From the NCBI GenBank assembly GCA_028288585.1, contig JAQBNL010000021.1, positions 9,221 through 73,220 on the forward strand: 64,000 bases of DNA, in the 5' to 3' direction. Shown one piece after another: positions 2,208 through 64,000 of the stretch. The DNA is from Chitinophagaceae bacterium. Lineage in GTDB: Bacteria > Bacteroidota > Bacteroidia > Chitinophagales > Chitinophagaceae. How positions within the stretch are numbered: the stretch's first letter is position 1; each line of letters begins with the position of its first letter. Under the pieces are notes generated by a model. That model saw nothing but the letters and a program-made list of their open reading frames with translations. It did not search any database and was not told the DNA's origin. A program made the translations under genes and the position numbers.

Positions 2208-2223
2208 ATTAAAAAATTAGTGG

Positions 2224-2970: not shown

Positions 2971-2994
2971 TTTATATAATTAATTTTTGAGGCG

Positions 2995-3002
2995 CAAAGG
3001 TA
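2995..3002 (-). promoter_or_regulatory. -7 promoter element (TACCTTTG) upstream of rplY
   Basis: Exact TAnnTTTG match. Confidence 0.6.
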
Positions 3003-3093
3003 GGAAATAAAATTTTCTGAACCATGATTTATCCTGCTCAATTTGGCCAGATAACAGGAAATTGCCTGATCGTAATCATAAATCCCGAAAGGA

Positions 3094-4050: not shown

Positions 4051-4123
4051 GAAGTTATTTTAAGAGGCAAATAAAATGTGTAGCGAAATTATAATTTAAA
4101 TTGCGATGAATTAACATGCAGGT

Positions 4124-4825: not shown

Positions 4826-4829
4826 TTAA

Positions 4830-5144
4830 TTAAGCCTGTGCTGTTGGTCCTCCAAAATTAAAGGGAAGTTCTACCGCTTCAATATCCTGGATGTTTCCAT
4901 TTACTGATTCAAATTTTTTTACATTATCTATCATTGCTTTCATAAAACGCTTGGCATGAGTAGGTGTCAAGATTATCCTGCTCTTAACTTTACTCTTCGG
5001 TGTTCCCGGCATTACATTTACAAAATCAACAATAAACTCAGCATGGCTATGCGTAATTATTGCGAGGTTAGCGTATACACCTTCAGAAATTTCTTCTGAA
5101 ATTTCAATATTTAATTGGTTGGGTTGATCTTTTGGGATATCCAT
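4830..5144 (-). CDS. DUF3467 family protein
   Basis: GVYANLAIITHSHAEFIVDF...SRIILTPxHAKR signature. Confidence 0.85.
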   Translation of the reverse strand: MDIPKDQPNQLNIEISEEISEGVYANLAIITHSHAEFIVDFVNVMPGTPKSKVKSRIILTPTHAKRFMKAMIDNVKKFESVNGNIQDIEAVELPFNFGGPTAQA

Positions 5145-5220
5145 TTAACAAAAATAAGAAAGAAGTTATTAGTGCAACTAAATTAGAAAGAGAAATATAA
5201 ATTGGATATAAGAGAATATA

Positions 5221-5248
5221 AAAAAAGCCGCCTCAAAATAGAGGCGGC
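5221..5248 (-). terminator. Intrinsic terminator after susD
   Basis: Stem GCCGCCTC/GAGGCGGC with a 6-nt loop, followed by a T6 run on the minus strand. Confidence 0.85.
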
Positions 5249-5270
5249 CTGTATAAACAAACATCTTTAA

Positions 5271-6749: not shown

Positions 6750-6760
6750 TGTATATTATT

Positions 6761-9700: not shown

Positions 9701-10030
9701 ACCTAGGGCGGTTGTTATAGTAACCCCTGTTAATTCAGTTCCACTGCGTACTAAACTTACATTCACAGTAGATTGATTTCCCACTGCAACCTCTTGAGTG
9801 GTAATACCAACACCACTAAAAACAAGCGTTGAGCCTGATGGAACAGAAAGCCTGAAATTGCCCATTGCATCAGCAGCAGTTCCGGTTTTTGATCCTTTAA
9901 CCCTAACAGTTGCGCCTTCAATAGGCACTCCTTTATCATCAGTTACTGTACCGGTCACCACCCGGTCCTGGGCAAATGCTAATATTCCACTAAATATCAG
10001 CATTACAAACAGTGTTAAAAATTTTCTCAT
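6761..10030 (-). CDS. susC: SusC/RagA family TonB-dependent transporter
   Basis: CarboxypepD-like N-terminal domain, plug motif DINPDDIESITVLKGAAASALYGSRGSNGVILI, barrel ending in F. Confidence 0.97.
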   Translation of the reverse strand: MRKFLTLFVMLIFSGILAFAQDRVVTGTVTDDKGVPIEGATVRVKGSKTGTAADAMGNFRLSVPSGSTLVFSGVGITTQEVAVGNQSTVNVSLVRSGTELTGVTITTALGIRRNRNQVAYAAQSVLGEEVSKTRSSNFINNLSGKVSGLELRQTNTLGGSTNVILRGTKSITGSNQALFVIDGVPFDNSNTNSTNQRTGRGGFDYGNAAADINPDDIESITVLKGAAASALYGSRGSNGVILINTKKGSRGLGITINSGISAGAMDKSTFAKYQKEYGGGYGPFYEDATGYFFYRDPANGFAPVAPNNPAGRLVYPTSEDASYGGRFDPNLMVYQWDAFDPSSPNFGKARPWVAAANDPTTFFEKPISFNNSIYIDGGSDKGSFKVGFTRNDDKGILPNSKITKNIFNFGSTYNITSKLSASANINFSNIVGLGRYGTGYDDKNVADNFRQWWQVNTDIKEQKEAYFREKKNVTWNPADPTDPTPIYWDNVYFNRYENYENDSRNRYFGNALLNYKITSSLNLMGRVSLDSYDELQEERQAFSSTTTSSYSRFNRGYRETNYDLLLNFDKNISTDLNVKALLGGNIRKQHIESISATTNGGLIVPRIYSLSNSANPVNAPFESDARKEVDGIFGGATISYKNMLTLDATLRRDVSSTLPKGNNTYYYPSISLGWVFSKLLPTTTWLSYGKLRGNYAEVGADAPVYSTLDVYNIVTPFGSNPQASVASTKNNPNLLPEKTKSTEIGLEMAFLKSRAGFDITYYNAESFNQILPTTVSTATGYSSKFLNAGTMVNKGIELSVYGTPVQTKDFSWTINLNWTRNRNTVKSLFEGSSNLLLANFQGGVSINATLGQPFGTLRGQNFVYFDANSPTKTKTSGTPAERITSANGRYRLSTTSNEVIGNPNPDWIGGINNTLKYKNLSLSWLIDVRQGGELFSLDLYYGLATGLYPETAGLNDLGKPSRNSLANGGGIINQGVDATGKVNTVRVTNAEFGSYGYRRVPAAGFIYDASYVKLREAVLTYSLPKNIMNHIPGFKGIDLSLIGRNLWLIHKNLPYADPEENISSGNYQGYQSGAYPTTRTIAFNVKFKF

Positions 10031-10161
10031 GTGTAATTTAGTTTTTTTTTGAATTTGTAAATATAGCAGATTTTTTGAAATGCCAAAAAAGCGTTAAATA
10101 TTTTATATGGCATTATCTCTCACATAAAAGGACAAGGAGCCGGATAAAAGTGCTGCGTAGG

Positions 10162-12237
10162 TTAAAAATTAAAAATACCCTGTAGCCTTATCTCAGTTTT
10201 TTTATTCCCGTTTATCTCGTCTAATCCACTTCCGATTATATCTTTTTCGGGATAAATTGTTTGAGCAACACGTAACCACAATGACAATTTCCTGGATATA
10301 TCATAATTGAGATTGATATAATACCGGTAACCTTTATCATAAAATACCGGGATGGAAAAGCTATAAAGCACATCATTCTCATAAGCATACATCCGGGTAT
10401 TATAACTATCCGTTTCAAAATATTGTAACCTTATATTACCGGAATAAGCTTTTCGCTGAGGCTTATATATTATATCTGCATAAGTTAGAAACCCTTGTTC
10501 GGGAGTAATCCCTTTTTTATCATACCACAATAATTCAACTCTGGTTCTAAACGTAAAAGCAGGATTTAATTTACAACTTAACTGCGTTCTCCAGTTTTGT
10601 TTTGGCTTAAGCACTACCGGGTTTAATACTAATCCATCAGGGTTATAATTAATAGCTTTTCTTTCTGAATGATACCTGGAATAAATTTCAATTTGCCTAT
10701 TCGGTTTATATGTTACCTGTAATAAATAATCATTACCGGCTGTAGGGGCGTCGGTTCTAAACTTCAACCAGGGAAATTTATATAAATCTGCATAGGCATC
10801 TATTCTCCACACATCAGTTGGGTTAATACTTATGCCTGCATAAAAACCACTTTCATTGGTGGGAAAAGTACTTTCTGTAAAAGCGTTGGTATAAAGTGAT
10901 TGGTAACCTTTGGAAATCTTTCTATATACAAAACTCATATCAACCCTGGCATCAGTACTTATCAATAATCCATTAATAAATGCTTTGTCTAATTTTTGAG
11001 TAGTTGCGGCTTCTCCAAAAAAATGCATGTTTTTATAGGTGTAACTATAGTCAATACTATAATTACCCCAGCTGTTTCCATTTAATGCATACTTATTATA
11101 TATATCGGCAGCTTTAATAATGGGATAGTTAAAATGATAGTGTACACCATTCAATCCAACATGAAATTTATTTTTTGTAAAAGAAACATTTCCTCCAAAA
11201 GTAAACTGGCGCTGAATATTTTTATCAGCCGCTTCACTATAAGTTCGATGGTACCCTGATGTTTGTAAAGAAGAAACAAAATCCTCGTTATTTAAAGTGT
11301 CAACAACAAAATTTGCATCCAGCTTACGATAACTTATAAATGCTGTTGCTTCTAAAAATTTCTTTTGCAGTGTAATGCCGGCGCCGCGATGGAAATAAAT
11401 TTCCCCTGCAGAATTATAAGGCCTGAGAACATCAGATTGCCTTTTTATATTTAAAACATCTGAACTTTTTTTAAATGCCAGCCCCATCCATTGGGTTAGT
11501 CCCTGCCCAAAATTTACATTAAAATCTCCAAGTGCCAGCGATTTTATTACCCCGATATTTCTTACAAAAAAATGTGCTGAATAAAAATCAAATCCGGATT
11601 TTTGTGTGCCTCTAAAAAATTGTTCGCCTGCATCTTTCTCAGCAGTTATACCATACTGCAACAGGTTTTTATAAGAATATTTATAACGGATAAAAACCTT
11701 TTGAGGGCTGCCGGGGTAAAGGCTTTTTGCATTACTGCTATCTAATAAATGACCTTTTGACTTTTCCAACACCTGCGTAACCCTTGCCAGCACGCTTTTT
11801 TCGCCGTTTTTTAATCTTTTACCTAATGATGCAAATAAGGCTGGCTGATCATTCACAGTAACATAAGGCCGTATCCGTCTTATCATTGATACATTCCAGG
11901 CGGGTATTGCCTGGAGCTCATAAATATTAATAAGGTTTCCAAAAAGATTTCTATATGAAATTAAATTCTGAATCTGTAACGCCGTAAGCACTTTTAATTC
12001 TTTTAAATCACTTTCAGTAGCAGTATTCAGGTTTATGGGGTCATCAAGAAAATGCTGCATTTCCTGCAGGTAGGAATCATCTTCTGTTTCTACGTCCTCA
12101 TTATTCTCAGTTAGATTTTCTAATTGCTGTTCAATAATACCGGGAGGAGTTACGGGTGTTTCCTGCGCATTTGCTGAATAATTATATTGTAACAGGAACC
12201 CCAGAAATACAATTTTTATATAGAAGTATTTTTTCAC
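10162..12237 (-). CDS. Helix-hairpin-helix (ComEA-like) domain fused to a predicted outer-membrane beta-barrel
   Basis: Signal peptide, PINLNTATESDLKEL...YELQAIP HhH segment, amphipathic strands, terminal F. The GTG start overlaps the upstream TGA (GTGA). Confidence 0.8.
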   Translation of the reverse strand: MKKYFYIKIVFLGFLLQYNYSANAQETPVTPPGIIEQQLENLTENNEDVETEDDSYLQEMQHFLDDPINLNTATESDLKELKVLTALQIQNLISYRNLFGNLINIYELQAIPAWNVSMIRRIRPYVTVNDQPALFASLGKRLKNGEKSVLARVTQVLEKSKGHLLDSSNAKSLYPGSPQKVFIRYKYSYKNLLQYGITAEKDAGEQFFRGTQKSGFDFYSAHFFVRNIGVIKSLALGDFNVNFGQGLTQWMGLAFKKSSDVLNIKRQSDVLRPYNSAGEIYFHRGAGITLQKKFLEATAFISYRKLDANFVVDTLNNEDFVSSLQTSGYHRTYSEAADKNIQRQFTFGGNVSFTKNKFHVGLNGVHYHFNYPIIKAADIYNKYALNGNSWGNYSIDYSYTYKNMHFFGEAATTQKLDKAFINGLLISTDARVDMSFVYRKISKGYQSLYTNAFTESTFPTNESGFYAGISINPTDVWRIDAYADLYKFPWLKFRTDAPTAGNDYLLQVTYKPNRQIEIYSRYHSERKAINYNPDGLVLNPVVLKPKQNWRTQLSCKLNPAFTFRTRVELLWYDKKGITPEQGFLTYADIIYKPQRKAYSGNIRLQYFETDSYNTRMYAYENDVLYSFSIPVFYDKGYRYYINLNYDISRKLSLWLRVAQTIYPEKDIIGSGLDEINGNKKTEIRLQGIFNF

Positions 12238-13058
12238 TCCTCCTTTTTATTAAAATTTATCATTAACAATAACCCGGGAGTAAAGCCTAGTTGCGGATGA
12301 TAACCGCCTGTAATATCTAAACGAAAACTTTTCCAGCTTATCCCTGCGCCTATGTAACTGTTTGTTGTTTCTGTTGAGATGCCAGCTCTCACAAAGAACT
12401 GTTTCATGAAATTGTATTGAAATCCTACGTCAATATTTACCGGCTGACTTTCTTCTTTGATTATTTCTGTGCTTACCAAAAACTTTTCCGAAGCTTCGTA
12501 ACCTATTCCGAACTTATAAACAGAACTTAATTTTTCATTATTAGTATTTGACAATTTACCACCAACCGGATTATATGCATGAATGCCAACATGTAATTTT
12601 TCTGAAAGATGTGCAATAGCGCCTATTTCAAAATTTATTGCAGATGAATTTCCATAAGCAGGAATACGAAATCCATAATAATTAAATTTTATACCAATAT
12701 CCAGCTTGCTTCCAATACTTCTTGCATAAGCTATCCCGATCTGGGATTCATTGTAATTTTTATATCCAAAATAATCCGCCTGCAAACCAAAATTTCCCTG
12801 TTTGGTTGGTAAAACAGCAACGGCAGAATAGAGGTTCGTTGAGGAAAGTAAAAAGCGCTTTTCTCCATACACACCAACTGCAGTAGTTTTTATTTGAGCC
12901 AGTGCAGCCTGGTTCGAAGTAAAAGAAAAAGCATCCACATGATTAATACTATAAGCGCCTAAACCGATATAGCGTGCCGCTATGGGCTGCCGAACCGCCT
13001 GGCTAAAACTGATTAGCCAAAATAAAATGAAGAGAAGAGCAAAATAAAACTTTCTCAA
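12234..13058 (-). CDS. Predicted outer-membrane beta-barrel protein, translationally coupled to the HhH gene
   Basis: Signal peptide, alternating aromatic/Gly strands, 4-bp overlap with the downstream gene. Confidence 0.7.
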   Translation of the reverse strand: MRKFYFALLFILFWLISFSQAVRQPIAARYIGLGAYSINHVDAFSFTSNQAALAQIKTTAVGVYGEKRFLLSSTNLYSAVAVLPTKQGNFGLQADYFGYKNYNESQIGIAYARSIGSKLDIGIKFNYYGFRIPAYGNSSAINFEIGAIAHLSEKLHVGIHAYNPVGGKLSNTNNEKLSSVYKFGIGYEASEKFLVSTEIIKEESQPVNIDVGFQYNFMKQFFVRAGISTETTNSYIGAGISWKSFRLDITGGYHPQLGFTPGLLLMINFNKKEE

Positions 13059-13141
13059 TGCAGCGGTATTAAATAGAAAAATAACTGGATAAATTTAATT
13101 GTTATCTTTTAAATAAAACAAATTAAACGGATGCTGATAGC

Positions 13142-13149
13142 TAATTTTG
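13142..13149 (+). promoter_or_regulatory. -7 promoter element (TAATTTTG) upstream of folD
   Basis: Exact TAnnTTTG match 4 nt before the ATG. Confidence 0.55.
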
Positions 13150-13153
13150 CAGC

Positions 13154-14035
13154 ATGAAATTATTAGATGGAAAGCTTGCATCACAGGCCATCAAAGATGA
13201 TCTGAAAACTAAAGTAGAGGAATTAAAGAAGCTGGGAAATAAAATTCCTCACCTGGCTGCTGTTTTAGTTGGAAATAACGGCGCTAGCGAAACGTATGTT
13301 GCCTCTAAAGTAAAAAGTTGCGAAGAGATCGGCTTTAAATCAACCTTAATTCGGTTAGAAGACACAATTAGTGAAGCCGCGTTATTAGAAGTGATCCATA
13401 AATTAAATTATGATAATGATGTAGATGGAATACTGGTACAACTTCCATTACCAAAACATATCTCCGAAGAAAAAGTGATAGATCTTATTGATGCTGCTAA
13501 AGATGTTGATGGCTTTCATCCTGTAAATATTGGCAAGATGGTGCAGGGATCAGAAACTTTTGTTTCCGCAACACCCTATGGCATACTACTATTATTACAA
13601 CATTATAAAATTGAAACAAAAGGGAAACATGCAGTAGTAATTGGCAGAAGCAATATTGTAGGCAGACCCATAAGCATTTTATTAAGCAGGAATGATGATC
13701 CCGGCAATTGCACGGTAACGCTTTGCCATTCTCACACAAAAAATTTAAAAGAAATTTGTTTGCAGGCAGATATAATTATTGCTGCATTAGGTAAACCCGA
13801 ATTTTTAAAAGCAGACATGGTAAAACAGGATGCAGTTATTATAGATGTGGGCATTACACGGATTACGGATGCATCAAAAAAAAGCGGCTATGCAATAAAA
13901 GGCGATGTTGATTTTGAGAATGTATCTCCAAAGTGCAGCTACATAACGCCTGTTCCCGGGGGTGTAGGGCCAATGACCATTGCAGCATTACTTATGAATA
14001 CTTATAAAGCAAATAGTCTGAACCATGATTTATAA
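13154..14035 (+). CDS. folD: Bifunctional methylenetetrahydrofolate dehydrogenase/cyclohydrolase
   Basis: YVxx[38 protein letters not shown] motifs. Confidence 0.98.
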
Positions 14036-14076
14036 GATTAAAGGATTTATAGGATTAAAGAATTATTCAAATCATG
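14016..14076. repeat. Degenerate copy of the GTCTGAACCATGATTT MITE-like family, supplying the last codons and stop of folD
   Basis: GTCTGAACCATGATTT at 14016-14031; partial inverted arm AAATCATG at 14069-14076. Confidence 0.7.
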
Positions 14077-14100
14077 CTACTCTTTTAAGCTACCCAAATT

Positions 14101-14742
14101 ATGGTTCAGAATAATACAACTACATCTCTTCCTGTAATGGAAGCATTTTACACGTTACAGGGTGAAGGATATTACCAGGGAAGAGCTGCTTATTTTATCC
14201 GCCTTGGCGGCTGCGATGTTGGCTGTGTATGGTGCGATGTAAAAGAAAGCTGGGATGTTACAAAACATCCTTTAAAAACGATTGATGAAATTGTAGAAGA
14301 CGCAAAACTAATCTCATCCCCCACCGGGAGAGGCAGGGAAGGAGCTTTGGTTGTTGTTACAGGTGGTGAACCTCTAATGCATGATCTTACAGAATTAACA
14401 AACGCATTACATAAAGCAGGCTTTCAAACAAATATTGAAACATCAGGCTCTTCTCCCCTGTCAGGAAATTGGGATTGGATATGTCTTTCTCCAAAAAAAT
14501 TTAAAGCGCCGTTGCCGGAAATATTACAAAAGGCGCATGAGTTAAAAGTTGTTGTTTTTAATAAATCCGATCTTGATTGGGCCGAAAAATATGTTGCATT
14601 AGTTGCACCGGATTGTAAACTTTACCTGCAACCCGAATGGGAAAAAGCATCCATGGTTACCCCAATGATAATTGATTATATAAAATCAAATCCCAAATGG
14701 GAATTATCATTGCAGATACATAAGTACATTAATGTTCCCTAA
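14101..14742 (+). CDS. queE: 7-carboxy-7-deazaguanine synthase (radical SAM)
   Basis: FYTLQGEG, CDVGCVWCD (CxxxCxxC), TGGEPL, IETSG, SLQIHK. Confidence 0.95.
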   Translation: MVQNNTTTSLPVMEAFYTLQGEGYYQGRAAYFIRLGGCDVGCVWCDVKESWDVTKHPLKTIDEIVEDAKLISSPTGRGREGALVVVTGGEPLMHDLTELTNALHKAGFQTNIETSGSSPLSGNWDWICLSPKKFKAPLPEILQKAHELKVVVFNKSDLDWAEKYVALVAPDCKLYLQPEWEKASMVTPMIIDYIKSNPKWELSLQIHKYINVP

Positions 14743-14862
14743 GGTACACGTACGATATTTGATATGAGACATACGATGTACTAACTTACGTTAACATTGT
14801 ATTACATCTGCCACAGCATAATTCTTGCTAATTTTGCTCTTCCTAATATTTTAAACTTCCTA

Positions 14863-16824
14863 ATGAAAAAAACTGTCCCCACATCGTACTTCTTACATCG
14901 TACATCGTACATTTTATTCTTCTTACTTCTTATATCGTACATGGCTAACGCCCAATGGTACGATCCTTTAAAAGTAAAAACAAAGGCAACAGATATTTAT
15001 TTACAGGCAATAAGTAAAGCGCAAAATGGTGACTTAACCACTGCGATAAAAATGATAAACGATGCACTGAAGATTGAGCCAAAATTTGTTGATGCATATA
15101 TTTCGATAGCAGGAATGTATGCTGAGCTAAAAAATTATAATGAATCCGTAAACCAATATGAAAAAGCATTTTCACTCGATAATACTTATTCAAAAACTTA
15201 TCTTCTTCCCTATTCAATTTCTTTGGCAGGTGCAGGAAAATTTGATAAAGCATTAAATGCAGTAACTGCTTTTCTTGCTATTCCTAAATTAAATGAGCGG
15301 AGTATTAAAGCGGCAGAATTCAGGAAAAAAACATATGAATTTGCAATCGACTACGAAAAGAATCATCCAAAAAATTATGTTTTCAATCCACAGAATTTAG
15401 GAGAAAATATTAATACAAAAGATCTTGAATACTATCCTTCTCTTACCATCGATGGTAAAAAAATGGTTCTTACCAGAAGAGTTAATTCCAGCATTGGTAA
15501 AGGAAAAGAAGAATTTTTTGAAAGCACTTTTACAAATGGAAATTGGAGCAATGCAACCCTACTGGAAGGAAATATAAGTACGGGTGAAAATAATGGCGGC
15601 GCCGATAATATTTCGCAGGATGGGAAATGGATCGTTTTTGCCGGCTGTAATTTCCCGGATGGAATGGGCAGTTGTGATATCTATATTTCTTATTTAACCA
15701 AACAGGGATGGAGCACTCCTGAGAACCTCGGCCCTAATGTCAATTCTGAATTTTGGGAAACATCTCCTTCCCTTTCTCCTGATAAAAAAGATCTTTACTT
15801 CAGCAGTACTGTGCCCGGTGGTTTTGGAGCAAGTGACATCTGGGTTTCTCACCGTAATACAAATGGCAAATGGGGATCTGCACAAAATCTTGGGCCGCAA
15901 ATAAATACTTCCGGCGAAGAAGGCAGTCCTTTTATTCATGCAGATAATCAAACATTATATTTTAACTCCAATGGCCACCAGGGATATAGTGAAAAATCTG
16001 ATCTCTTTGTTTCGCACAAACAACCAGACGGTACATGGAGTACGCCTGAAAATTTAGGCTATCCCATAAACACCATTGATGATGAGGGTTCTTTAATAGT
16101 AGCTGCAGATGGCAAAACTGCTTACTATGCAAGTGAGCGAAGCGATTCAAAGGGCGGGCTTGATATCTATACATTTGAATTAAGAGAAGATGTTCGTCCT
16201 GCTAAAACTTTATGGGTTAAAGGAAAAGTTTTTGACAAGAAAACACTAAACGGATTACCCTCTTCAGTACAACTTACTGATGTTGTAAGTAAACAGCCAA
16301 TAAGCAGGTTACAAACCGATGAAGATGGAAATTATTTAGTTACACTTCCCGTAGGAAAAGAGTATGCTTTTAATGTTAACCGCAAAGGATATTTATTTTA
16401 TTCAGCCAATTTTAACCTTGCTAAAAATGCTCCTGATTCAGTGTATCAAATTGATATTCCCTTACAACCTATTGAAGCAAATGCAAGCATTATTTTAAAG
16501 AATGTTTTCTTTGATACAAAGCAAACCCAGCTAAAGCCTGAATCAATAACAGAGCTGGATAATGTTGTGTTGCTGATGAATGAAAATCCTAAATTAAAGA
16601 TCCAGATAGGCGGGCATACTGATAATATTGGTAAGCCCGAAGACAATGTAAAGCTCTCTTTAGGAAGAGCTGTTGCTGTAGTAAATTATTTATTAGGAAA
16701 GGGAATAAAAAATGACCGGCTCACCTTTAAAGGATTCGGAGAGACAAAACCAATTGCTGATAATAAAACTGAGCAAAGCAGGGCGCTGAACAGGAGAACT
16801 GAACTGATTGTTATCAGTAATTAA
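14863..16824 (+). CDS. OmpA-family protein with TPR and PD40 repeats (PorE-like architecture)
   Basis: TPR-like N-terminus, PD40 repeats (PSLSPD), C-terminal OmpA domain (IGGHTDNIG, LSLGRA, NRRTEL). Likely start is the ATG at 14863; a TAATTTTG promoter element lies at 14829-14836. Confidence 0.9.
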   Translation: MKKTVPTSYFLHRTSYILFFLLLISYMANAQWYDPLKVKTKATDIYLQAISKAQNGDLTTAIKMINDALKIEPKFVDAYISIAGMYAELKNYNESVNQYEKAFSLDNTYSKTYLLPYSISLAGAGKFDKALNAVTAFLAIPKLNERSIKAAEFRKKTYEFAIDYEKNHPKNYVFNPQNLGENINTKDLEYYPSLTIDGKKMVLTRRVNSSIGKGKEEFFESTFTNGNWSNATLLEGNISTGENNGGADNISQDGKWIVFAGCNFPDGMGSCDIYISYLTKQGWSTPENLGPNVNSEFWETSPSLSPDKKDLYFSSTVPGGFGASDIWVSHRNTNGKWGSAQNLGPQINTSGEEGSPFIHADNQTLYFNSNGHQGYSEKSDLFVSHKQPDGTWSTPENLGYPINTIDDEGSLIVAADGKTAYYASERSDSKGGLDIYTFELREDVRPAKTLWVKGKVFDKKTLNGLPSSVQLTDVVSKQPISRLQTDEDGNYLVTLPVGKEYAFNVNRKGYLFYSANFNLAKNAPDSVYQIDIPLQPIEANASIILKNVFFDTKQTQLKPESITELDNVVLLMNENPKLKIQIGGHTDNIGKPEDNVKLSLGRAVAVVNYLLGKGIKNDRLTFKGFGETKPIADNKTEQSRALNRRTELIVISN

Positions 16825-16876
16825 TTTTTTCGGATGTGATTTAATTTTCTTTTATTCGTTGTGAGAATGTTTTCCA

Positions 16877-17977
16877 ATGCACAACGATCTCTTATACCAG
16901 ATTGCACTAACGCTTATCCCTAACATCGGTGATGTACATGCAAAAGCATTGGTTACCCATTTTGGTAATGCCCAAAATATTTTTAAAGCAAAGAAAAAAG
17001 ACCTGGGAGAAATTGAAGGCATCGGCTCAATCCGGGCTACATCCATAAAAGAATATGTTGATTTTACAATAGCTGAGGAAGAAATCACTTTCATAGAAAA
17101 ATATAAGATCACTCCTCTTTTCATTACTGGTGAAAACTATCCGCAACGTTTACTCAATTGTTATGATAGCCCGATAATGCTCTATTACAGGGGTAATGCA
17201 GATCTTAATCAATCTAAAATTGTAGCAATAGTTGGCACAAGAAATAATAATGAATATGGCAAAGCAGTATGTGAAAAACTGGTTGAGGATCTTGCCAACG
17301 AAAATATTTTAATTGTAAGCGGACTTGCATTTGGCATTGACAGCTTTGCACATAAGACAGCATTAAAGAATGATATGAAAACGGTAGCAGTTCTTGCTCA
17401 TGGGTTAGACCGCATTTACCCTTCTCAAAATAAATCGCTTGCAAAAGAAATAATTGAGCAGGGTGGCTTACTTACTGATTTCAAAAGCAAAACAAATCCA
17501 GACAAACAAAATTTTCCTAAACGTAACCGGATCGTAGCGGGTATCAGTGATGCAATTGTTGTGGTGGAATCAGGATTAAAAGGAGGTTCATTAATTACAG
17601 CTGAATTGGGCAACGGCTATAACAAAGATGTTTTTGCAATTCCCGGCAGAACGAATGATACAAAAAGCGAGGGATGTAATTATCTTATAAAAAATAATAA
17701 AGCCTGCCTTATCACTTCTGCAGAAGATATTCTGGAAAATATGGGGTGGAAGGAACACAAAAAGTCTTCTGCAAAAAAACAGCGTGAATTATTTATTGAA
17801 CTCTCTGACGACGAAAAGATTGTTATCAATATCCTTCAGCAACAGGAACAAATTCATATTGATGAGTTGTACCTTAAGAGCGGCTTAAGCAGCAGTGCCG
17901 TGGCTTCTGCGTTACTAACTTTAGAAATGCAATCTGTAATCAGTTCATTGCCTGGTAAAATGTATAAGATGGTGTAA
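16877..17977 (+). CDS. dprA: DNA-processing protein DprA
   Basis: VAIVGTR, VSGLAFGID, FPKRNRIVAG, GGSLITA, FAIPG; C-terminal winged helix. Confidence 0.97.
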   Translation: MHNDLLYQIALTLIPNIGDVHAKALVTHFGNAQNIFKAKKKDLGEIEGIGSIRATSIKEYVDFTIAEEEITFIEKYKITPLFITGENYPQRLLNCYDSPIMLYYRGNADLNQSKIVAIVGTRNNNEYGKAVCEKLVEDLANENILIVSGLAFGIDSFAHKTALKNDMKTVAVLAHGLDRIYPSQNKSLAKEIIEQGGLLTDFKSKTNPDKQNFPKRNRIVAGISDAIVVVESGLKGGSLITAELGNGYNKDVFAIPGRTNDTKSEGCNYLIKNNKACLITSAEDILENMGWKEHKKSSAKKQRELFIELSDDEKIVINILQQQEQIHIDELYLKSGLSSSAVASALLTLEMQSVISSLPGKMYKMV

Positions 17978-58867: not shown

Positions 58868-58915
58868 TCATCTCTTCCATATTCTCTATATTTGAAATCT
58901 AATGCTTTAAATGCA

Positions 58916-60211
58916 ATGAAGATTACAGCTTCTTTTAGCAAACTGTTTGAACTGGAGACACTGCAAAGTGAAAAGTTAAGAGCAGCAATTTTGGCTTCCT
59001 ATGCATTGTTTACGGGTTTGTACATTTTAGTGATAAGCTATTTAATAAAAAACGACACAGCCACAGGAATTCAGTTTACATTACCTCATACATTGCTTTT
59101 TCTTTTAGCAGGCCTGTTTATTTACGAGGTTACCATCAACAGGATTTTAAATCACAGGGCAGTAAAATTTGGCAAATCTATCCATCCGGATTTTAAATAT
59201 GCAAATGCATTTATTGAGCTGGCGATTATTACTGTAATGCTTTATGTTTATACAGTTTACTTTAAGCACAACTCTTTTTTATCTGATATAATAATGGTAA
59301 GCCTGTATTACCTCATAGTATTTCTATCAGCATTTTATCTTGACAAATATATCAGCGTGATAACAGGAATTATTGCAGCATGTGGCTATACATGTTTGCA
59401 TTTGATAAATCACAAAACAGGTTCTTCTACTGATATGATTGAAGAAATTTTATATAATAAATATTTCGTTTACGCTACAGGTATTTTACTTTTTTTATGC
59501 GGAATAGCAGCAGCATTTATGGCTAACCAGCTTCAGAAAAGTATACAGCGCACTGTTGAATTAGTGGAAGACGAAAACAAATTATTCAATTTATTCAGCA
59601 GGCAGATATCAAAGGAAGTAGCACAGGAATTATTGGATAAGGATGGTAAAATGCCCAGTGAGCTTAGGTTTGTGAGTGTTATGTTCATTGATATAAGAAA
59701 TTTTACTGTGTATGCTGAAACGCAGGAACCCGAGGCAATTGTTGAATTTCAAAATACATTTTTTGGAATAATTACCGGTGTTGTACATAAGTATGAGGGT
59801 ATTGTAAACCAGTTTTTGGGAGATGGCTGCATGGTAACTTTTGGCGCTCCTGTTACCGTAGATAATCCTGCAGCCAATGCGGTTAATGCTGCGCTTGAAA
59901 TAAATAAAATTATTGATGATAAAATTGCAAATAAAGAACTTCATTTATTTACCATCGGGATAGGCATACATTGCGGGGAGGCGGTTACCGGTAACATAGG
60001 AACGATTTTAAAAAGCGAGTATTCAATAACCGGCGGGGTAGTTATTCTTGCCGCAAGAATTGAATCAGAAAATAAAACTTACCACACAAAAATACTCATC
60101 TCAAAGGAAGCGCTGGAAGCAGCAGGTGTAAAAGGAATTAATGCAGTCTCTATGGGTGTATCACATTTAAAGGGCTGGAGTCACCCGGTAGAATTGTATA
60201 AACTGGCTTAG
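58916..60211 (+). CDS. Membrane-anchored class III adenylate/guanylate cyclase with atypical residues
   Basis: About six TMs, then FIDIRNFT, QFLGDG, IGIHCG, LAARIE. Likely start is the ATG at 58916. Confidence 0.9.
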   Translation: MKITASFSKLFELETLQSEKLRAAILASYALFTGLYILVISYLIKNDTATGIQFTLPHTLLFLLAGLFIYEVTINRILNHRAVKFGKSIHPDFKYANAFIELAIITVMLYVYTVYFKHNSFLSDIIMVSLYYLIVFLSAFYLDKYISVITGIIAACGYTCLHLINHKTGSSTDMIEEILYNKYFVYATGILLFLCGIAAAFMANQLQKSIQRTVELVEDENKLFNLFSRQISKEVAQELLDKDGKMPSELRFVSVMFIDIRNFTVYAETQEPEAIVEFQNTFFGIITGVVHKYEGIVNQFLGDGCMVTFGAPVTVDNPAANAVNAALEINKIIDDKIANKELHLFTIGIGIHCGEAVTGNIGTILKSEYSITGGVVILAARIESENKTYHTKILISKEALEAAGVKGINAVSMGVSHLKGWSHPVELYKLA

Positions 60212-61005
60212 TCTTCCTGCAAATAATGTTGTTTCCATTTTTGAAAAATATCCTGCTGCATTTGAATTTTCAATTCACCTGAGATGTTTGTCTGCAGCAG
60301 CTTAAGATCTTTTAAAATTTGCTTACGGTCGCTTTTGCCGGCTATCAAAAAATAAAAATATTTTTCTTTAGGTTGGCGTGTACCTGATTCTTCAGCTTTC
60401 CATTTATAAATGTTACCGGGCAAAAAATTATTTTTTGTAACATCAACCTGTAATGAAGTGGCGCTGTTTAAAATAGTATCCAATATTTTCTCATCTGCAT
60501 TATTTAAAATAACCAGGTGCACGGGTATTTTTCCGGCAGGCTTTTTCCATCCCAGCATAAAAGCATCAGCAATGATGATTGTATTATCAGCAGGTAGCTT
60601 CATTAATTCATCTCCCCGGAATACAACGGGAGTTACAGAAAGCTTATCTTCTTTTTTTCCTGAAAATAAATTGCTATAAACGTAACTAAAAAACTTTTGG
60701 GTAACGCCGGTATTGGCGGCACTTGACATCATCTTTTGCAATGTTTCAAATGTATAAGTGCCTGCTGAATTAACCTGCAGCGACTTACCGTTTTCTTCAA
60801 TAAGCATACAGGTGCCCTGCTTTACCTGTAAAGAATTATTTTTTACCAGGATATCGCCCCGCTTTGCGGCCGATGATTTATTAGCGGTAATAATATTTAC
60901 GTTGCCGGCTACATGATATACAACAAGGGATTTTTGTGCTGATGCTGCAGCAGCAATCAAAACAAAAAACAGTAGCAGGTATTTTATTTTAGTGTGCACC
61001 TTCAA
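60208..61005 (-). CDS. Secreted protein with a FecR-like N-terminus and a DUF928-like C-terminal region
   Basis: Signal peptide; VYHVAGNV...KRGDIL...LQV beta-rich segment; VFRG motif; W...YKWK Ig-like tail. The family call is pattern-based. Confidence 0.55.
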   Translation of the reverse strand: MKVHTKIKYLLLFFVLIAAAASAQKSLVVYHVAGNVNIITANKSSAAKRGDILVKNNSLQVKQGTCMLIEENGKSLQVNSAGTYTFETLQKMMSSAANTGVTQKFFSYVYSNLFSGKKEDKLSVTPVVFRGDELMKLPADNTIIIADAFMLGWKKPAGKIPVHLVILNNADEKILDTILNSATSLQVDVTKNNFLPGNIYKWKAEESGTRQPKEKYFYFLIAGKSDRKQILKDLKLLQTNISGELKIQMQQDIFQKWKQHYLQED

Positions 61006-62191
61006 AAAATTTTGAGTGAAACTTCCATTTTAATTTATGCCTTAAATACTGAACTATGCTATCATAAAACAAAATAAAATCTCCCAGCAATAAAACTGCA
61101 ACCAAAACTGCCGATGATTCGATTTTTAAATTTGCCTTTGCATATAATAAGATAGTTAAAAAAACGAACATAATGCTTACTGTTACCTGGAGCAACATTG
61201 TATACAGGTGAAACCATACGGCTTTATGCACCCACCATTTTATAAACAATGGTAAAATTATCCAGCTGAGAATAAATGCCAGCAGCCAGTTAAGCCATGC
61301 CGGAAAAGAATAGATATAATCTTCATCCAGCGCCATTCTTAAAATATTTGCATGAATAATACTGCCGTACATATCAGGATAACTGCGGCCGGAAAGGCGT
61401 GGATTCAACGGCGTAAAAAACCTGTCGTCATCCAGTAAGCCTTTATTTCCACCTGCACTGCCCATATAACCCAGTAATACAATTTTATCTTTTACAATTC
61501 CCGGATTGAAAGAGGGGTTGATTACTTCATCAAAAGTTTGGTAAGCAAAATTTTGAGTATTCCCAAAGTAACGGATCTCAGTTTTTCGCTGTTTCTTTAA
61601 TAATGCCGCAGCCTTAGACGAATCGTACATTTTTATAACAGCTGTGGTAAATGCCTGCACATTATTATAAACGGGATAATAATACCGTATGGTAGAATAC
61701 TGCCTGTCTTCACCAATTAGATTTACAAATGCGGTAGATTTTGTTTGAAAATATTCGTGATTCCTGGTTTCAGTAATCGTGCTGTCAAAAGATGCGATAT
61801 AGGGTAAAACAATATTAGTATAGCGGGCAAAAGTTTGCTTTAAGATTTCATCGGAAGCAGAATCTTTTTTATCAGGAAAAATAATGTCAAGGCCGATAAC
61901 CTTTGGCTTTCCTTCTTCCAGTCTTTGCAACAAAAAAGCAATTTCTTCACGGCTCTTATTTTCTACATTTATTAATACCAGCGGGCCTTTGTATATCCTG
62001 CTCTGGTTTATAATCTTTGCATAATATATATCTGTTAAAGTAAAATCTTTAAAAGCCTGGGTAAAGTGATTAAAAATAGAAACATTAAAAAATAGAAAAG
62101 ATAACACCCCGATGCCCGCAAAAACAAACAGGTTTACAATAAAATATTCCAGCCGGTGAGATTTTTTGGCACGGTGTAACTGTTTCTTCAT
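60989..62191 (-). CDS. Stand-alone CHASE2 domain membrane protein
   Basis: N-terminal TM, LVLINVE, KPKVIGLDIIF, VKDKIVLLG, D.FFTP, YGSIIHANIL, three C-terminal TMs and only a short cytoplasmic tail. Confidence 0.85.
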   Translation of the reverse strand: MKKQLHRAKKSHRLEYFIVNLFVFAGIGVLSFLFFNVSIFNHFTQAFKDFTLTDIYYAKIINQSRIYKGPLVLINVENKSREEIAFLLQRLEEGKPKVIGLDIIFPDKKDSASDEILKQTFARYTNIVLPYIASFDSTITETRNHEYFQTKSTAFVNLIGEDRQYSTIRYYYPVYNNVQAFTTAVIKMYDSSKAAALLKKQRKTEIRYFGNTQNFAYQTFDEVINPSFNPGIVKDKIVLLGYMGSAGGNKGLLDDDRFFTPLNPRLSGRSYPDMYGSIIHANILRMALDEDYIYSFPAWLNWLLAFILSWIILPLFIKWWVHKAVWFHLYTMLLQVTVSIMFVFLTILLYAKANLKIESSAVLVAVLLLGDFILFYDSIVQYLRHKLKWKFHSKFFEGAH

Positions 62192-62221
62192 TTTTTAATT
62201 TTATTATTTACATAAGCAAAA

Positions 62222-62253
62222 AAGGTATAAACAGGCGATCCCATTTATACCTT
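62222..62253 (-). terminator. Possible terminator between the small secreted gene and CHASE2
   Basis: Stem AAGGTATAAA/TTTATACCTT with a 12-nt loop, followed by a T-run on the minus strand. Confidence 0.5.
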
Positions 62254-62272
62254 CTTTACAATCTTGATAAAC

Positions 62273-62677
62273 TTATTGCTTCAGGTTAATAGTAAATACC
62301 CTGCTGTCGTTACAGTAACTATCGTTTTGCCAATAGTAAGTTCCGCCTGCAGTTTTTGCGTACCATTTTGTCCAGTTACCCGGAGTCCATACATCAAAGC
62401 GAACAGATGTTGCATACGGTGAAAGACGTCCCTGGTATTGATTTTCTACCCAAACATCTACATAATAACCTGTGTAGTTGTCAAGATAAAGATAGCAATA
62501 CCCTCTTTTTTTAGATTTAGGACGAACCTGGTCTTCAGAAGGCGCAGACATACTGCCATCACCTGAACCTGATTTGCCATAAACCGCAACTTTCTTTTTG
62601 GCTTGCGCAAATGATTGGTTTTGGAAGGCCAGTGAAAGGCCCAAAACCGCAATAAAAAGTAATAGTAACTTTTTCAT
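62273..62677 (-). CDS. Small secreted hypothetical protein
   Basis: Signal peptide, Gly/Ser linker, basic KSKKRG, then an aromatic-rich beta domain with two Cys. Confidence 0.75.
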   Translation of the reverse strand: MKKLLLLFIAVLGLSLAFQNQSFAQAKKKVAVYGKSGSGDGSMSAPSEDQVRPKSKKRGYCYLYLDNYTGYYVDVWVENQYQGRLSPYATSVRFDVWTPGNWTKWYAKTAGGTYYWQNDSYCNDSRVFTINLKQ

Positions 62678-62730
62678 AATTGATGTGTTTTTGAATTTAA
62701 AAATATAATAAATAATAATTCCCTGGTTAA

Positions 62731-64000
62731 TTACTTCACTTCATCCTTCTTCACAATATGAAACGGAACAGTCATAATATTTACTGCATCCGGTTGAATT
62801 GCCTCTTCCTGCGGGCCACGTTTTTTATTTCCCTCAGCATTATATGTCCCTTCTACAATTTTTTCAAATGGGCTTTTGCCCCTGCCCCTTGTTCCGGCTG
62901 CTTTTCCCCTGCTCTCAAAAATATTCCTGAGGTCAAGCGGAACATCAGAAGCAATTATTTTTAAAACATCAACACCATACGGGGGGCCTATTGTAAAAAT
63001 TTTTTCAAGCTTGATAGTATCTTCCTGTGATATCAAAAAATCTTCAGGCTGATCTCTTCTCCCCGGTATTAAAACATTTACCTGGTTATCGGGCTGAATA
63101 TCCACTATGGTATAATACAGTCTTTTTTGGTCACTGTGGTTGATAATATTCAAACGGAATTTATCTCCATTCTTAAAAAATATATTTCCTGCAACATCCA
63201 TTTTTGATTTTATTTTATCATCCAGGTATTGTGCAGTGCGGGGGTTATCACAATTTGCCACGCATTTAAGCGGAACAAATTGTAATGACACTTTATACTC
63301 GGGATTGGCAAGAGATAAATTACGGAGATATTTTGCCCTTGCATAATCGCCCACTTTCATGGCAAGTGTATCATATAAATTTTGATTAGCAATATTTTTA
63401 TTTGTTTGCCAGATGATCATCTGTCCTGAATTTACCAGGTAAATTGAATCACCGGAAAATGTATTCAACCCGCTTTCTAAAAAAAGATCAGCAGCTTCAT
63501 TGCTGAGGGTAGCCTGCCTGATATTATTGAATGCAGCTATAAGATTTTTTTTAATTTCAGCATCTGCTACATTCAATTTTACTTTTACGCCCAGGTCGCC
63601 ATAATTAATTTCATCAAGATAAACCCATGCAGATTTTATTTCTGCATCAGTTAATTTTTTATCCAGTTTTACCTCTGATGCATACTCACCTGCATTGGTA
63701 ATAATGCCTGTGGCCAAAGGTTTGGTGCCTGCCGTATCTCTTGTATCAGCCTTATATAATTTTAAAGTGGTGTTACCAAATATCCCAAAAATCTTCCCTA
63801 CAGGAATAGAAAGAATATTTGTTTTTTCATCTTTTTGAAGAAGGTAATAGGCAGGCTTACTCATTGCCTTTCCTCCAAACAAAGTATAATCAAGATCACC
63901 TTCAGCTAATGGTGTTTGCTGGGAAACAAGCGAACTCATCTCTAATTTAATATCGTCGAACAAACCGCGATAGCTGGTGCTTTTATCTGCTTTGGCAAGT
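62731..64000 (-). CDS. 3' part of a probable caspase-family (C14) protein with a DUF4384-like domain; start lies outside the window
   Basis: The frame stays open to base 64000 (LAKADKSTSYRGLFDDIK...QTPLAEG), resembling the end of a metacaspase domain. KNGDKFRLNI..YYTIVDIQPDN..VLIP is DUF4384-like. The catalytic His/Cys are not visible in the window. Confidence 0.65.
   Translation of the reverse strand, partial: LAKADKSTSYRGLFDDIKLEMSSLVSQQTPLAEGDLDYTLFGGKAMSKPAYYLLQKDEKTNILSIPVGKIFGIFGNTTLKLYKADTRDTAGTKPLATGIITNAGEYASEVKLDKKLTDAEIKSAWVYLDEINYGDLGVKVKLNVADAEIKKNLIAAFNNIRQATLSNEAADLFLESGLNTFSGDSIYLVNSGQMIIWQTNKNIANQNLYDTLAMKVGDYARAKYLRNLSLANPEYKVSLQFVPLKCVANCDNPRTAQYLDDKIKSKMDVAGNIFFKNGDKFRLNIINHSDQKRLYYTIVDIQPDNQVNVLIPGRRDQPEDFLISQEDTIKLEKIFTIGPPYGVDVLKIIASDVPLDLRNIFESRGKAAGTRGRGKSPFEKIVEGTYNAEGNKKRGPQEEAIQPDAVNIMTVPFHIVKKDEVK

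What the first reader, a model, noticed from the sequence alone, without database searches (positions are those of the whole stretch)
58916..64000. Candidate protease-gated signalling system: caspase/DUF4384, small secreted protein, output-less CHASE2, FecR-like protein and a convergent cyclase
Seen: four co-oriented minus-strand genes end tail-to-tail (4-bp stop overlap at 60208-60211) with a plus-strand membrane class III cyclase. The CHASE2 and FecR-like genes overlap by 17 bp. Known: CHASE2 normally carries its own cytoplasmic output domain (cyclase, kinase, GGDEF), and CHASE2-cyclases occur with FecR-like, DUF928 or CHAT/caspase partners in rhizobia and cyanobacteria. Inference: this is a split version in which sensor and cyclase are separate membrane proteins, and an extracytoplasmic caspase-like protease generates or releases the signal. 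I do not recognise this arrangement as a characterised Bacteroidota system.
Basis: partly seen in the sequence, partly recalled or inferred. Interest (0 to 1): 0.8.

Follow-up and report, generated by a model that had tools for sequence, protein, structure and literature searches.

The report
Exported caspase operon with output-less CHASE2
Four genes for an exported caspase-type protease, a small secreted pro-protein, a CHASE2 membrane protein with no output domain and its periplasmic partner form a conserved, unstudied cell-envelope module, while the neighbouring cyclase is only a chromosomal neighbour and not its missing output.

Summary
The genes and both overlaps are as described. The sequence beyond the window shows the predicted caspase domain, with an invariant His-Gly/Cys dyad and a signal peptide. 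The "FecR-like" label fails. No member of that family hits FecR, and its model is a beta domain, an FN3-like sandwich and a helical tail, the domain order published for MtxA.

The conserved unit is the four-gene cassette caspase, small protein, CHASE2, partner. Its core is the CHASE2-partner pair, present in 75 of 84 loci across Bacteroidota and Ignavibacteria/Kapaibacteria, often beside exported proteases.

- The cyclase belongs to a conserved RecG-PAP2-cyclase backbone.
- Its orthologues sit in the same place without the cassette in several relatives.
- Five same-genus genomes have the cyclase but no close CHASE2 homologue.
- About 30 Lacibacter-type loci have the cassette but no cyclase.
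- About 70 loci of the wider cyclase family never adjoin CHASE2.

The likely mechanism is inferred, not shown. The Arg/Lys-specific protease would cleave the small protein at an almost invariant K-x-R-G site, and probably itself and the partner, acting with the CHASE2-partner complex. It is a new variant of known CHASE2-partner and prokaryotic caspase systems, of moderate interest.

The parts
62731..64000 (-). 3' part (422 codons) of the exported C14 caspase-family protease. The gene continues past the window end to window-equivalent 64758 (likely start, M32 of the longest ORF) or 64851 (first ATG). Layout: signal peptide, p20-like catalytic domain, about 200-aa middle region, DUF4384, conserved C-terminal strand.
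   Evidence: PF00656 at 1.2e-21 and PF14326; invariant H104-G105, C169, acidic DDNGDExDGxDE pocket motif, invariant R182-G183 in the linker after the catalytic Cys, and R647 invariant with G648 nearly invariant near the C-terminus.
62273..62677 (-). Small secreted protein (134 aa). Layout: signal peptide, variable Lys-rich segment of about 35 aa, conserved K-x-R-G-x-C junction (G59 and C61 invariant, K56 and R58 in at least 90%), then a beta-rich domain of about 75 aa. Candidate pro-protein substrate, or reactive-site inhibitor, of the protease.
   Evidence: no Pfam family; alignment of 18 homologues down to 27% identity; present in 38 loci, next to the caspase.
60989..62191 (-). Output-less CHASE2 membrane protein (400 aa). 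Layout: short N-terminal cytoplasmic stretch, TM1, periplasmic CHASE2 domain, three TM helices, tail of about 15 aa.
   Evidence: PF05226, 87 bits; family of 395-450-aa proteins. AF2 pLDDT 84.8 with helices 13-36, 298-322, 324-353 and 359-385; hydrophobic segments.
60208..61005 (-). Periplasmic partner of CHASE2 ('P265', 265 aa), overlapping the CHASE2 gene by 17 bp. Layout: signal peptide, N-terminal beta domain (27-85), helices, disordered linker with V-x-[RK]-[GA], FN3-like sandwich (142-221), helical tail (TPR-like in longer relatives). The domain order matches MtxA; it is not FecR.
   Evidence: found in 75 of 84 loci; 74 ORFs lie directly downstream of CHASE2 on the same strand. AF2 pLDDT 88.7 with FN3 matches; no FecR; weak hit to MtxA 4z29; basic residue in the linker in 38 of 45.
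58916..60211 (+). Adjacent convergent 6TM class III cyclase homologue (431 aa from the start used by homologues). Judged a syntenic neighbour and not a component of the module.
   Evidence: PF00211; family-wide Gln, Ser and Ile at the Lys, Asp and Asn positions; occurs without the cassette and vice versa.

Best explanation
The four minus-strand genes form a self-contained, vertically inherited cell-envelope cassette of Chitinophagaceae. All four products face the periplasm. They are an exported caspase-family (C14, orthocaspase-like) protease with a DUF4384 tail, a small secreted pro-protein, a CHASE2 membrane protein with no cytoplasmic output domain, and a periplasmic partner with the MtxA domain order, likely translationally coupled to CHASE2. 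The CHASE2-partner pair is the ancient core, and exported proteases are recurrent add-ons (C14 caspases; M48-TPR proteins in Saprospiraceae/Lewinellaceae loci). The convergent cyclase is a backbone gene of the RecG-(Nei)-PAP2-cyclase block. It lies next to the cassette only because both are old neighbours of recG.

The mechanism below is inferred. The protease, which has an intact His/Cys dyad and an acidic pocket like that of Arg/Lys-specific metacaspases, would autoprocess at its invariant Arg-Gly sites. It would then cut the small protein at its almost invariant K-x-R-G junction, releasing a 75-aa domain. It may also cut the basic site in the partner's disordered linker. The CHASE2-partner complex at the inner membrane would either bind the released domain or tether and gate the protease. 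The read-out is therefore extracytoplasmic, or passes through the membrane helices to an unlinked partner, and is not a fused enzyme domain.
For: Shown: domain calls and dyad. Hydrophobic N-terminal leaders on three proteins, and the 1+3 TM topology of CHASE2. Operon-like spacing of 53 bp, 81 bp and a 17-bp overlap. The same gene order recurs in about 32 Chitinophagaceae loci, and the same four genes recur in variant order in three Bacteroidales MAG loci. The CHASE2-P265 pair is in 75 of 84 loci across several orders and phyla, and caspase-domain genes are in 57 loci. M48-TPR and further caspase genes lie in Saprospiraceae/Lewinellaceae clusters. Conserved basic sites: small protein K56 and R58 (>=90%) with G59 invariant; caspase R182-G183 invariant, R647 invariant and G648 nearly so; P265 linker basic in 38 of 45, in a segment with pLDDT below 50. 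Orthocaspases and metacaspases cleave after basic residues, and the one characterised orthocaspase autoprocesses (PMC5756287).

Cyclase exclusion. MtxA, a secreted protein with a beta region, an alpha/beta region and a helical region, is encoded next to a CHASE2-cyclase gene (PMC4439547). LysM-FecR proteins are encoded next to CHASE2 kinases (PMC5192318). A periplasmic partner for CHASE2 is therefore a known theme.
Against: Signal peptides were read by eye and by hydropathy, not with a dedicated predictor. Arg-Gly dipeptides are short, and their role as cleavage sites is inference from conservation and position. The similarity of P265 to MtxA is statistically insignificant (E=0.11 and 0.9). 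The CHASE2 model has no structural relative in the PDB, so nothing is known about what it binds. About 15 Kapaibacteria/Ignavibacteria loci have the CHASE2-P265 pair with no caspase nearby, and one relative (L204) keeps the pair without caspase or small protein. The pair must therefore have a protease-independent role. Within the window's own clade the cassette, when present, is almost always beside the cyclase (about 17 contigs, partly inferred from shared contig lengths). In L002 the two stay adjacent without PAP2 or RecG. A clade-specific functional link therefore cannot be fully excluded.
Confidence: 0.6

Rival explanations
1. One reading: a split CHASE2-cyclase receptor. The output-less CHASE2 protein senses a protease-generated signal and activates the separately encoded 6TM cyclase through membrane contacts.
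For: The tail-to-tail adjacency with overlapping stops recurs in the window, L120, L205, L204 and L002. In L002 the two remain adjacent in a different chromosomal context. CHASE2 is fused to class III cyclases elsewhere (Sinorhizobium CyaD1/D2/K; the Magnetospirillum mtx cluster).
Against: The genes are convergent, so not co-transcribed. Cyclase orthologues at 68-84% identity sit in the identical RecG-PAP2-cyclase context without the cassette, as does L135. The cassette was lost at least 2-3 times independently on the cyclase tree. Five same-genus genomes have the cyclase and no CHASE2 homologue at E<=1e-30, and three have a distant CHASE2 without the cyclase. About 30 cassette loci lack any cyclase. 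About 70 loci of the wider cyclase family have no CHASE2, P265 or caspase neighbour. The cassette is also a recG neighbour where no cyclase exists, so shared synteny explains the adjacency. The cyclase lacks the canonical substrate Lys and catalytic Asn throughout its family.
Confidence: 0.1
2. An envelope protein-processing or quality-control machine and not a signalling device. The CHASE2-P265 complex is a membrane anchor or regulator for exported proteases. The small protein is a dedicated inhibitor or chaperone with a reactive-site Arg-Gly loop that keeps the caspase silent until it reaches its site of action.
For: There is no cytoplasmic output at all. The pair recurs with unrelated exported proteases, including M48-TPR proteins, an architecture that from my own knowledge resembles BepA (not tested here), and with several caspase paralogues in Saprospiraceae/Lewinellaceae. 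The small protein always adjoins the protease gene and is duplicated in L036. From my own knowledge, protease plus small-inhibitor gene pairs are common. An operon type combining protease and protease-inhibitor functions with a metacaspase gene is reported in Rhizobium (PMC3501461).
Against: The conserved site lies at a junction between a variable segment and a folded domain, which fits a propeptide better than an inhibitor loop. No similarity to any known inhibitor family was found. The pair also exists with no protease nearby.
Confidence: 0.25
3. A caspase-based conflict, defence or programmed-cell-death system.
For: The caspase domain hits a PADLOC caspase model (1.6e-11). The distribution is patchy: none of 60 same-genus genomes has a close homologue of the CHASE2 gene. 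Caspase-CHASE2 fusions occur in systems discussed as conflict systems (PMC8195603).
Against: All four proteins are exported or periplasm-facing, whereas known caspase-type defence effectors act in the cytoplasm. The other three proteins have no PADLOC hit. The locus is stably syntenic next to recG across a family, not in a mobile or defence-island context. No NTPase, nuclease, gasdermin or sigma-factor partner is present.
Confidence: 0.05

Closest known systems
mtxA and CHASE2-adenylate cyclase gene pair of Magnetospirillum (MtxA structure 4Z29; PMC4439547)
   Same: A secreted protein is encoded next to a CHASE2 membrane protein. Its layout is a signal peptide, an N-terminal beta region, an alpha/beta (Ig-like) region and a helical C-terminal region. 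P265 has the same domain order, and its only non-TPR hit in the PDB is the MtxA N-terminus.
   Different: The similarity is not significant (E=0.11 to 0.9). In Magnetospirillum CHASE2 is fused to a cyclase and mtxA precedes it. Here CHASE2 has no output domain and the partner gene follows it. The paper describes no caspase or small pro-protein gene with mtxA.
LysM-FecR protein plus CHASE2 histidine kinase operon (Burkholderia 'BiofilmReg'; related two-gene operon in P. aeruginosa PAO1; PMC5192318)
   Same: A periplasmic accessory protein is encoded directly beside a CHASE2 membrane protein in one operon.
   Different: That partner carries recognisable LysM and FecR domains and the CHASE2 protein is a kinase with a response regulator. 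Here the partner has neither domain and there is no kinase.
Sinorhizobium meliloti CyaD1/CyaD2/CyaK CHASE2 cyclases with NsrA (PMC13001267 and its references)
   Same: CHASE2 signalling there is triggered by a signal of protein nature via an envelope accessory protein. This parallels the idea that a protein fragment is the ligand here.
   Different: Those are fused CHASE2-cyclases that raise cAMP, with an outer-membrane beta-barrel partner and no protease. Here there is no fused output, and the nearby cyclase is not linked.
Prokaryotic caspase homologues: orthocaspases and metacaspases of MEROPS family C14, including caspase-CHASE2 fusion proteins (PMC3501461, PMC5756287, PMC8195603)
   Same: A p20-type domain with the His/Cys dyad, C-terminal accessory domains, frequent N-terminal helix or signal peptide, and basic P1 specificity for the family. 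Caspase and CHASE2 are already known to be fused in Trichodesmium and in EACC2 proteins.
   Different: In the fusions the caspase is predicted to be cytoplasmic and would act as the output of CHASE2. Here the caspase is a separate, exported protein on the same side of the membrane as CHASE2.

Membership tests
Peptidase C14 (caspase/metacaspase/orthocaspase) | Match to the family profile above its curated threshold | tested here: met
   PF00656 at 78 bits against a cut-off of 21.4, E=1.2e-21, on the full-length protein
Peptidase C14 (caspase/metacaspase/orthocaspase) | Catalytic His-(Gly) and Cys dyad | tested here: met
   H104-G105 and C169 are invariant in 16 homologues
Peptidase C14 (caspase/metacaspase/orthocaspase) | Proteolytic activity and basic P1 specificity | not testable with these tools
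   Only the conserved acidic DDNGDExDGxDE motif and family knowledge (PMC5756287) are available
CHASE2 receptor | [quoted passage not shown] | tested here: met
   PF05226 at 87 bits against a cut-off of 26.3; helices 13-36, 298-322, 324-353 and 359-385
CHASE2 receptor | Cytoplasmic output domain (cyclase, kinase, GGDEF, phosphatase) after the last helix | tested here: not met
   The protein ends about 15 residues after TM4, and the whole family is 395-450 aa
FecR (PF04773) | Sequence or profile similarity of the 265-aa protein to the FecR domain | tested here: not met
   0 of 45 members hit PF04773 at E<=0.01. 59 homologues have no Pfam domain. hhalign against FecR domains from this and same-genus genomes gives about 1% probability. 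A PF04773 scan of this genome rings at three other places only.
MtxA-like periplasmic partner of CHASE2 | Signal peptide, beta region, Ig-like region, helical region, and a gene next to a CHASE2 gene | tested here: met
   AF2 model, FN3-type fold matches, TPR-like tail in the family, adjacency in 74 ORFs; MtxA description in PMC4439547
MtxA-like periplasmic partner of CHASE2 | Significant sequence or structure similarity to MtxA (4Z29) | tested here: inconclusive
   Profile hit to 4z29_A residues 25-71 at E=0.11 and 0.9. 4Z29 is not among the top 50 Foldseek matches.
Class III nucleotidyl cyclase | Profile match and the two metal-binding Asp residues | tested here: met
   PF00211 at 76 bits; D259 (FIDIR) and D303 (LGDG) are invariant
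Class III nucleotidyl cyclase | Canonical substrate-specifying Lys/Asp (or Glu/Cys) pair and the transition-state Asn | tested here: not met
   Gln299, Ser370 and Ile377 occupy these positions, while Arg381 is kept. All four are invariant in 24 family members down to 37% identity. Mapping to the canonical positions rests on my reading of the motifs.
   each occurs without the other, with at least 2-3 independent losses. Of 60 other same-genus genomes, 5 have the cyclase only, 3 have a distant CHASE2 only, and none has both.
Pycsar (PycC cyclase plus effector) | Cyclase gene adjacent to a cNMP-binding effector gene | tested here: not met
   PycC models hit the cyclase (9.6e-19), but at a score no higher than the general PF00211 match. 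The neighbours are PAP2 and the cassette. No cNMP-binding family was reported for the neighbours that were scanned.

The most novel reading that the evidence does not exclude
Output-less CHASE2 proteins with their MtxA-like partners are a widespread class of envelope receptors. In this phylum they are commoner than CHASE2 proteins fused to an output domain. Their ligand would be a protein fragment matured by a dedicated exported caspase-type protease: here the 75-aa domain released from the small secreted protein at K-x-R-G. This would give the first defined ligand and maturation pathway for a CHASE2 domain. The signal would either pass through the membrane helices to unlinked partners or act outward on the protease.
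Probability: 0.25. Interest if true: 0.8.

Novelty: new variant of a known kind. Interest (0 to 1): 0.5.

Why it matters
What CHASE2 domains sense has been open since the domain was described, and papers in the searched library still call it unknown. The best-studied case, in Sinorhizobium, points to a protein signal. This cassette offers a compact, testable candidate: one protease, one small secreted protein with a conserved basic cleavage junction, one CHASE2 protein and one partner, all on the same side of the membrane. It also shows that in Bacteroidota the output-less form is common (26 of 401 sampled genomes), so CHASE2 cannot be treated only as the input module of a fused enzyme. Finally, it adds an extracytoplasmic, non-suicidal context to the debate on what bacterial caspase homologues do. 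The negative result matters too. A tight tail-to-tail adjacency with overlapping stops, conserved in about 17 contigs, turned out to be inherited synteny and not a functional link.

Tried and rejected
1. FecR identity of the 265-aa protein was rejected: Pfam on 45 members, profile against the PDB, and hhalign against FecR domains taken from this and same-genus genomes. In that hhalign run only the plus-strand loci translated cleanly, so the FecR profile held about 13 sequences.
2. I asked whether the CHASE2 fold resembles a caspase or another known fold. The AF2 model is good (pLDDT 84.8), but Foldseek against the PDB gave nothing below E=0.7.
3. The Foldseek search with the P265 model returned only generic FN3/Ig matches for the second domain.
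4. Defence-system reading: PADLOC hits only the caspase domain and PycC-type models for the cyclase, and the context does not fit.
5. I considered a NarL-type two-component system as the missing output. Response-regulator and HisKA_3 kinase genes lie convergent to the cassette in 15 Lacibacter-type loci and in L203. They are absent from the window and from many other loci, so this is recorded as a lead only.
7. Literature searches for CHASE2 with caspase, FecR, DUF4384, CHAT or DUF928 found fusion proteins and CHASE2-partner operons, but no description of this cassette.


Full report
**1. What is in the sequence**

The window is C30:9221-73220 of a 3.3-Mb assembly with 98 contigs. The closest protein relatives carry Chitinophagaceae names.

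ORF listing and Pfam/NCBIfam scans give these genes:
- A plus-strand ORF at 58892-60211. Homologues start at M9, position 58916, giving 431 aa. It has PF00211 (3.8e-21) and six hydrophobic segments.
- A minus-strand 265-aa ORF at 60208-61005, with no Pfam family.
- A 400-aa CHASE2 protein at 60989-62191 (PF05226, 87 bits).
- A 134-aa ORF at 62273-62677, with no family.
- An ORF that runs off the window at 64000 and carries DUF4384.

The cyclase TAG (60209-60211) and the 265-aa gene's TAA (60208-60210 on the minus strand) overlap, so the genes share 4 bp. The CHASE2 and 265-aa genes overlap by 17 bp. The other gaps are 81 and 53 bp.

I fetched the contig beyond the window (L001). The last gene is 706 aa from the first ATG. 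Sixteen homologues start at MRLHFLLFLFTVISLKAAAQ, which is residue 32. It has Peptidase_C14 (1.2e-21) plus DUF4384. Upstream and divergent lie pxpB, pxpC, pxpA and an Nramp gene, so the caspase gene heads the operon.

**2. The four proteins**

*Caspase.* H104-G105 and C169 are invariant. The acidic DDNGDExDGxDE stretch resembles the basic-P1 pocket region of metacaspases; this comparison is my own reading. R182-G183 is invariant in the linker after the catalytic Cys. R647 is invariant and G648 nearly invariant near the C-terminus.

*Small protein.* After a signal peptide comes a variable, Lys-rich stretch of about 35 residues. Next is a K-x-R-G-x-C junction in which G59 and C61 are invariant and K56 and R58 are present in at least 90% of sequences. 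A conserved beta-rich domain of about 75 residues follows. The junction is kept down to 27% identity.

*CHASE2.* The AF2 model has pLDDT 84.8. [quoted passage not shown] Foldseek finds no PDB relative (best E=0.7).

*The 265-aa protein, P265.* The AF2 model has pLDDT 88.7. It has a signal peptide, a beta domain (27-85), two helices and a disordered linker (120-131). An FN3-like sandwich (142-221; FN3 matches) and a helical tail follow. The tail is TPR-like in longer relatives. The linker carries V-x-[RK]-[GA], with a basic residue in 38 of 45 sequences.

P265 is not FecR by any test I could run:
- None of 45 members hits PF04773.
- Fifty-nine database homologues have no Pfam domain and are named 'hypothetical protein' where named at all.
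- hhalign against FecR domains taken from this genome and same-genus genomes gives about 1% probability.

Its only non-TPR hit in the PDB is the N-terminus of MtxA (4z29), at E=0.11 and 0.9. That is not significant. MtxA is, however, a secreted protein with the same order of beta, alpha/beta and helical regions, and it is encoded next to a CHASE2-cyclase gene (PMC4439547).

**3. What is conserved across genomes**

The CHASE2 protein belongs to a tight family of 395-450-aa proteins.

A scan of species-representative genomes returned 80 loci. I built local profiles from the window's proteins and mapped them onto these loci and the other loci fetched by then, 84 CHASE2-bearing loci in all:
- P265 is in 75 of the 84 loci, and 74 P265 ORFs lie directly downstream of CHASE2 on the same strand.
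- Caspase-domain genes are in 57 loci.
- The small protein is in 38 loci.
- The cyclase is in 4 loci, representing three genomes.

The caspase, small, CHASE2, P265 order recurs in about 32 Chitinophagaceae loci (Lacibacter and kin). The same four genes recur in variant order in three Bacteroidales MAG loci.

Saprospiraceae/Lewinellaceae loci have larger clusters with two P265 copies, M48-TPR proteins and several caspase-TPR proteins.

Kapaibacteria/Ignavibacteria loci have only the pair. It sits between UvrD-like/M16 and NfeD/Band-7 genes.

In a sample of 401 genomes of the phylum, 26 have the strong output-less type, in 394-595-aa open frames. A further 17 have weaker matches, mostly in 720-780-aa frames. 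Output-less CHASE2 is therefore not an oddity here.

**4. Is the cyclase a partner?**

From the cyclase side, there is a tight orthologue group at 60% identity or more, then a drop to about 41%.

A metagenome scan returned 80 loci. The roughly 70 loci of the wider family (31-50% identity) have no CHASE2, P265 or caspase neighbour. Among the orthologues in that scan:
- L120 has the full arrangement.
- L135 (73% identity, 7-kb flanks) does not.
- In L121 (74%), the 800 bp downstream of the cyclase shows no P265.

Look-ups of orthologues on long contigs gave two groups:
- P0131 (84%), P0152 (75%) and P0171 (68%) lie in the same CHU_C/PKD protein, RecG, (Nei), PAP2, cyclase block as in the window. 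They are followed by a beta-lactamase, a HEAT-like protein plus OEP/ABC/MacB genes, or PDT/ilv genes, and not by the cassette.
- L205 matches the window exactly. L204 has only P265 and CHASE2. L203 has the cassette 4 kb away, behind a two-component system.

On a tree of 22 orthologues the 'no cassette' state needs three changes, and well-supported branches force at least two.

Across 61 genomes of the genus, five others have the cyclase orthologue (69-84% identity) and none of them has a CHASE2 homologue at E<=1e-30. Two of these genomes are 98% complete. Three further genomes have only a distant CHASE2 (28-30% identity) and no cyclase orthologue.

The cassette sits next to recG in the Lacibacter group too, where there is no cyclase, and in L010. 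The simplest account is that the cassette and the PAP2-cyclase pair are both old neighbours of recG.

The counter-evidence is limited:
- About 17 contigs of the window's clade keep the two together.
- In L002 they stay adjacent without PAP2 or RecG.

I put a functional link at about 10%.

**5. How it most likely works**

Shown: the gene order, the export signals, the intact dyad, the conserved basic sites and the pairing of CHASE2 with P265.

Inferred: orthocaspases and metacaspases cut after Arg/Lys, and the one characterised orthocaspase autoprocesses (PMC5756287). The invariant Arg-Gly sites in the protease are therefore likely autoprocessing sites. The K-x-R-G junction of the small protein is a likely maturation site. 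The basic site in the P265 linker is a possible third target.

The CHASE2-P265 complex would then either receive the released 75-aa domain or hold and gate the protease at the membrane. Because there is no cytoplasmic domain, any inward signal must use the membrane helices and an unlinked partner.

The main rival is that the small protein is an inhibitor and the whole module is a processing machine. It cannot be separated from this model with the present data.

A defence or cell-death reading is unlikely. Every component faces the periplasm, and only the caspase domain hits PADLOC.

**6. Comparison with what is known**

The known themes are:
- A periplasmic partner gene beside CHASE2: MtxA and LysM-FecR with a CHASE2 kinase.
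- A protein-nature signal for CHASE2 cyclases in Sinorhizobium.
- Caspase-CHASE2 fusions with a cytoplasmic caspase.

I found no paper describing an exported caspase, a small pro-protein, an output-less CHASE2 and a partner with the MtxA domain order as one unit.

Earlier notes of this scan report the same theme in other lineages. I treated them as leads. My own data agree on the pair and on 'MtxA-like, not FecR'.

**7. Verdict**

I class it as a new variant of known kinds, with interest 0.5.

Noticed in passing
window 58916-60211: The cyclase and its whole family, down to 37% identity (for example Siphonobacter), keep Gln at the substrate Lys position, Ser at the Asp/Thr position and Ile at the transition-state Asn. 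The two metal Asp residues and the Arg are retained. This is a conserved variant active site, not decay. PADLOC PycC (pyrimidine cyclase) models hit at 9.6e-19, no better than the general class III model.
   Followed up: partly
L204:9281-12001: One relative keeps RecG, PAP2, cyclase, P265 and CHASE2 but has no caspase gene. An unrelated 183-aa gene stands in place of the small protein. This is a natural 'pair only' derivative within the cassette clade.
   Followed up: partly
L004:10981-17197, L006, L013, L015, L027, L031; L203:10376-12909: NarL-type response regulators and PAS/HisKA_3 kinases lie convergent to the 3' end of the cassette in 15 Lacibacter-type loci, and between cyclase and cassette in L203. 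They may be a recurrent neighbour or just synteny.
   Followed up: no
L042-L050, L056, L061, L063, L070, L072, L075 (about 1-17000 in each): Saprospiraceae/Lewinellaceae loci carry a conserved larger cluster. Its order is: a large caspase protein (about 1200 aa), M48-TPR, an unannotated 526-aa protein, CHASE2, P265, M48-TPR, a second P265, then a caspase-TPR protein on the other strand. L046 and L049 have two tandem CHASE2 genes.
   Followed up: partly
L057, L059, L060, L068, L071, L076, L080: In Kapaibacteria/Ignavibacteria the CHASE2-P265 pair has no caspase nearby. It sits in a fixed context: UvrD-like helicase/nuclease and M16 peptidase on one side, NfeD and Band-7/SPFH on the other.
   Followed up: no
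window-equivalent 64870-69391 (L001:6870-11391): The block between the cassette and the OEP/ABC/MacB genes holds pxpB, pxpC, pxpA, an Nramp gene, a 168-aa ORF and a 247-aa ORF. pxpB has no match in the three same-genus genomes searched. In L201 the OEP/ABC/MacB genes follow the cyclase after a single 253-aa gene. The region downstream of the cyclase is therefore a variable spot.
   Followed up: partly
window-equivalent 64758-64851 (L001:6758-6851): The longest ORF of the caspase gene adds 31 N-terminal residues before the signal peptide. Homologues start at the internal Met, so a gene call from the first ATG would mask the signal peptide.
   Followed up: yes
whole genome and genus: None of 60 other genomes of the same genus has a close homologue of this CHASE2 gene. 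Three have only 28-30% identical output-less CHASE2 genes. Close relatives of the cassette appear mainly in metagenome contigs.
   Followed up: partly
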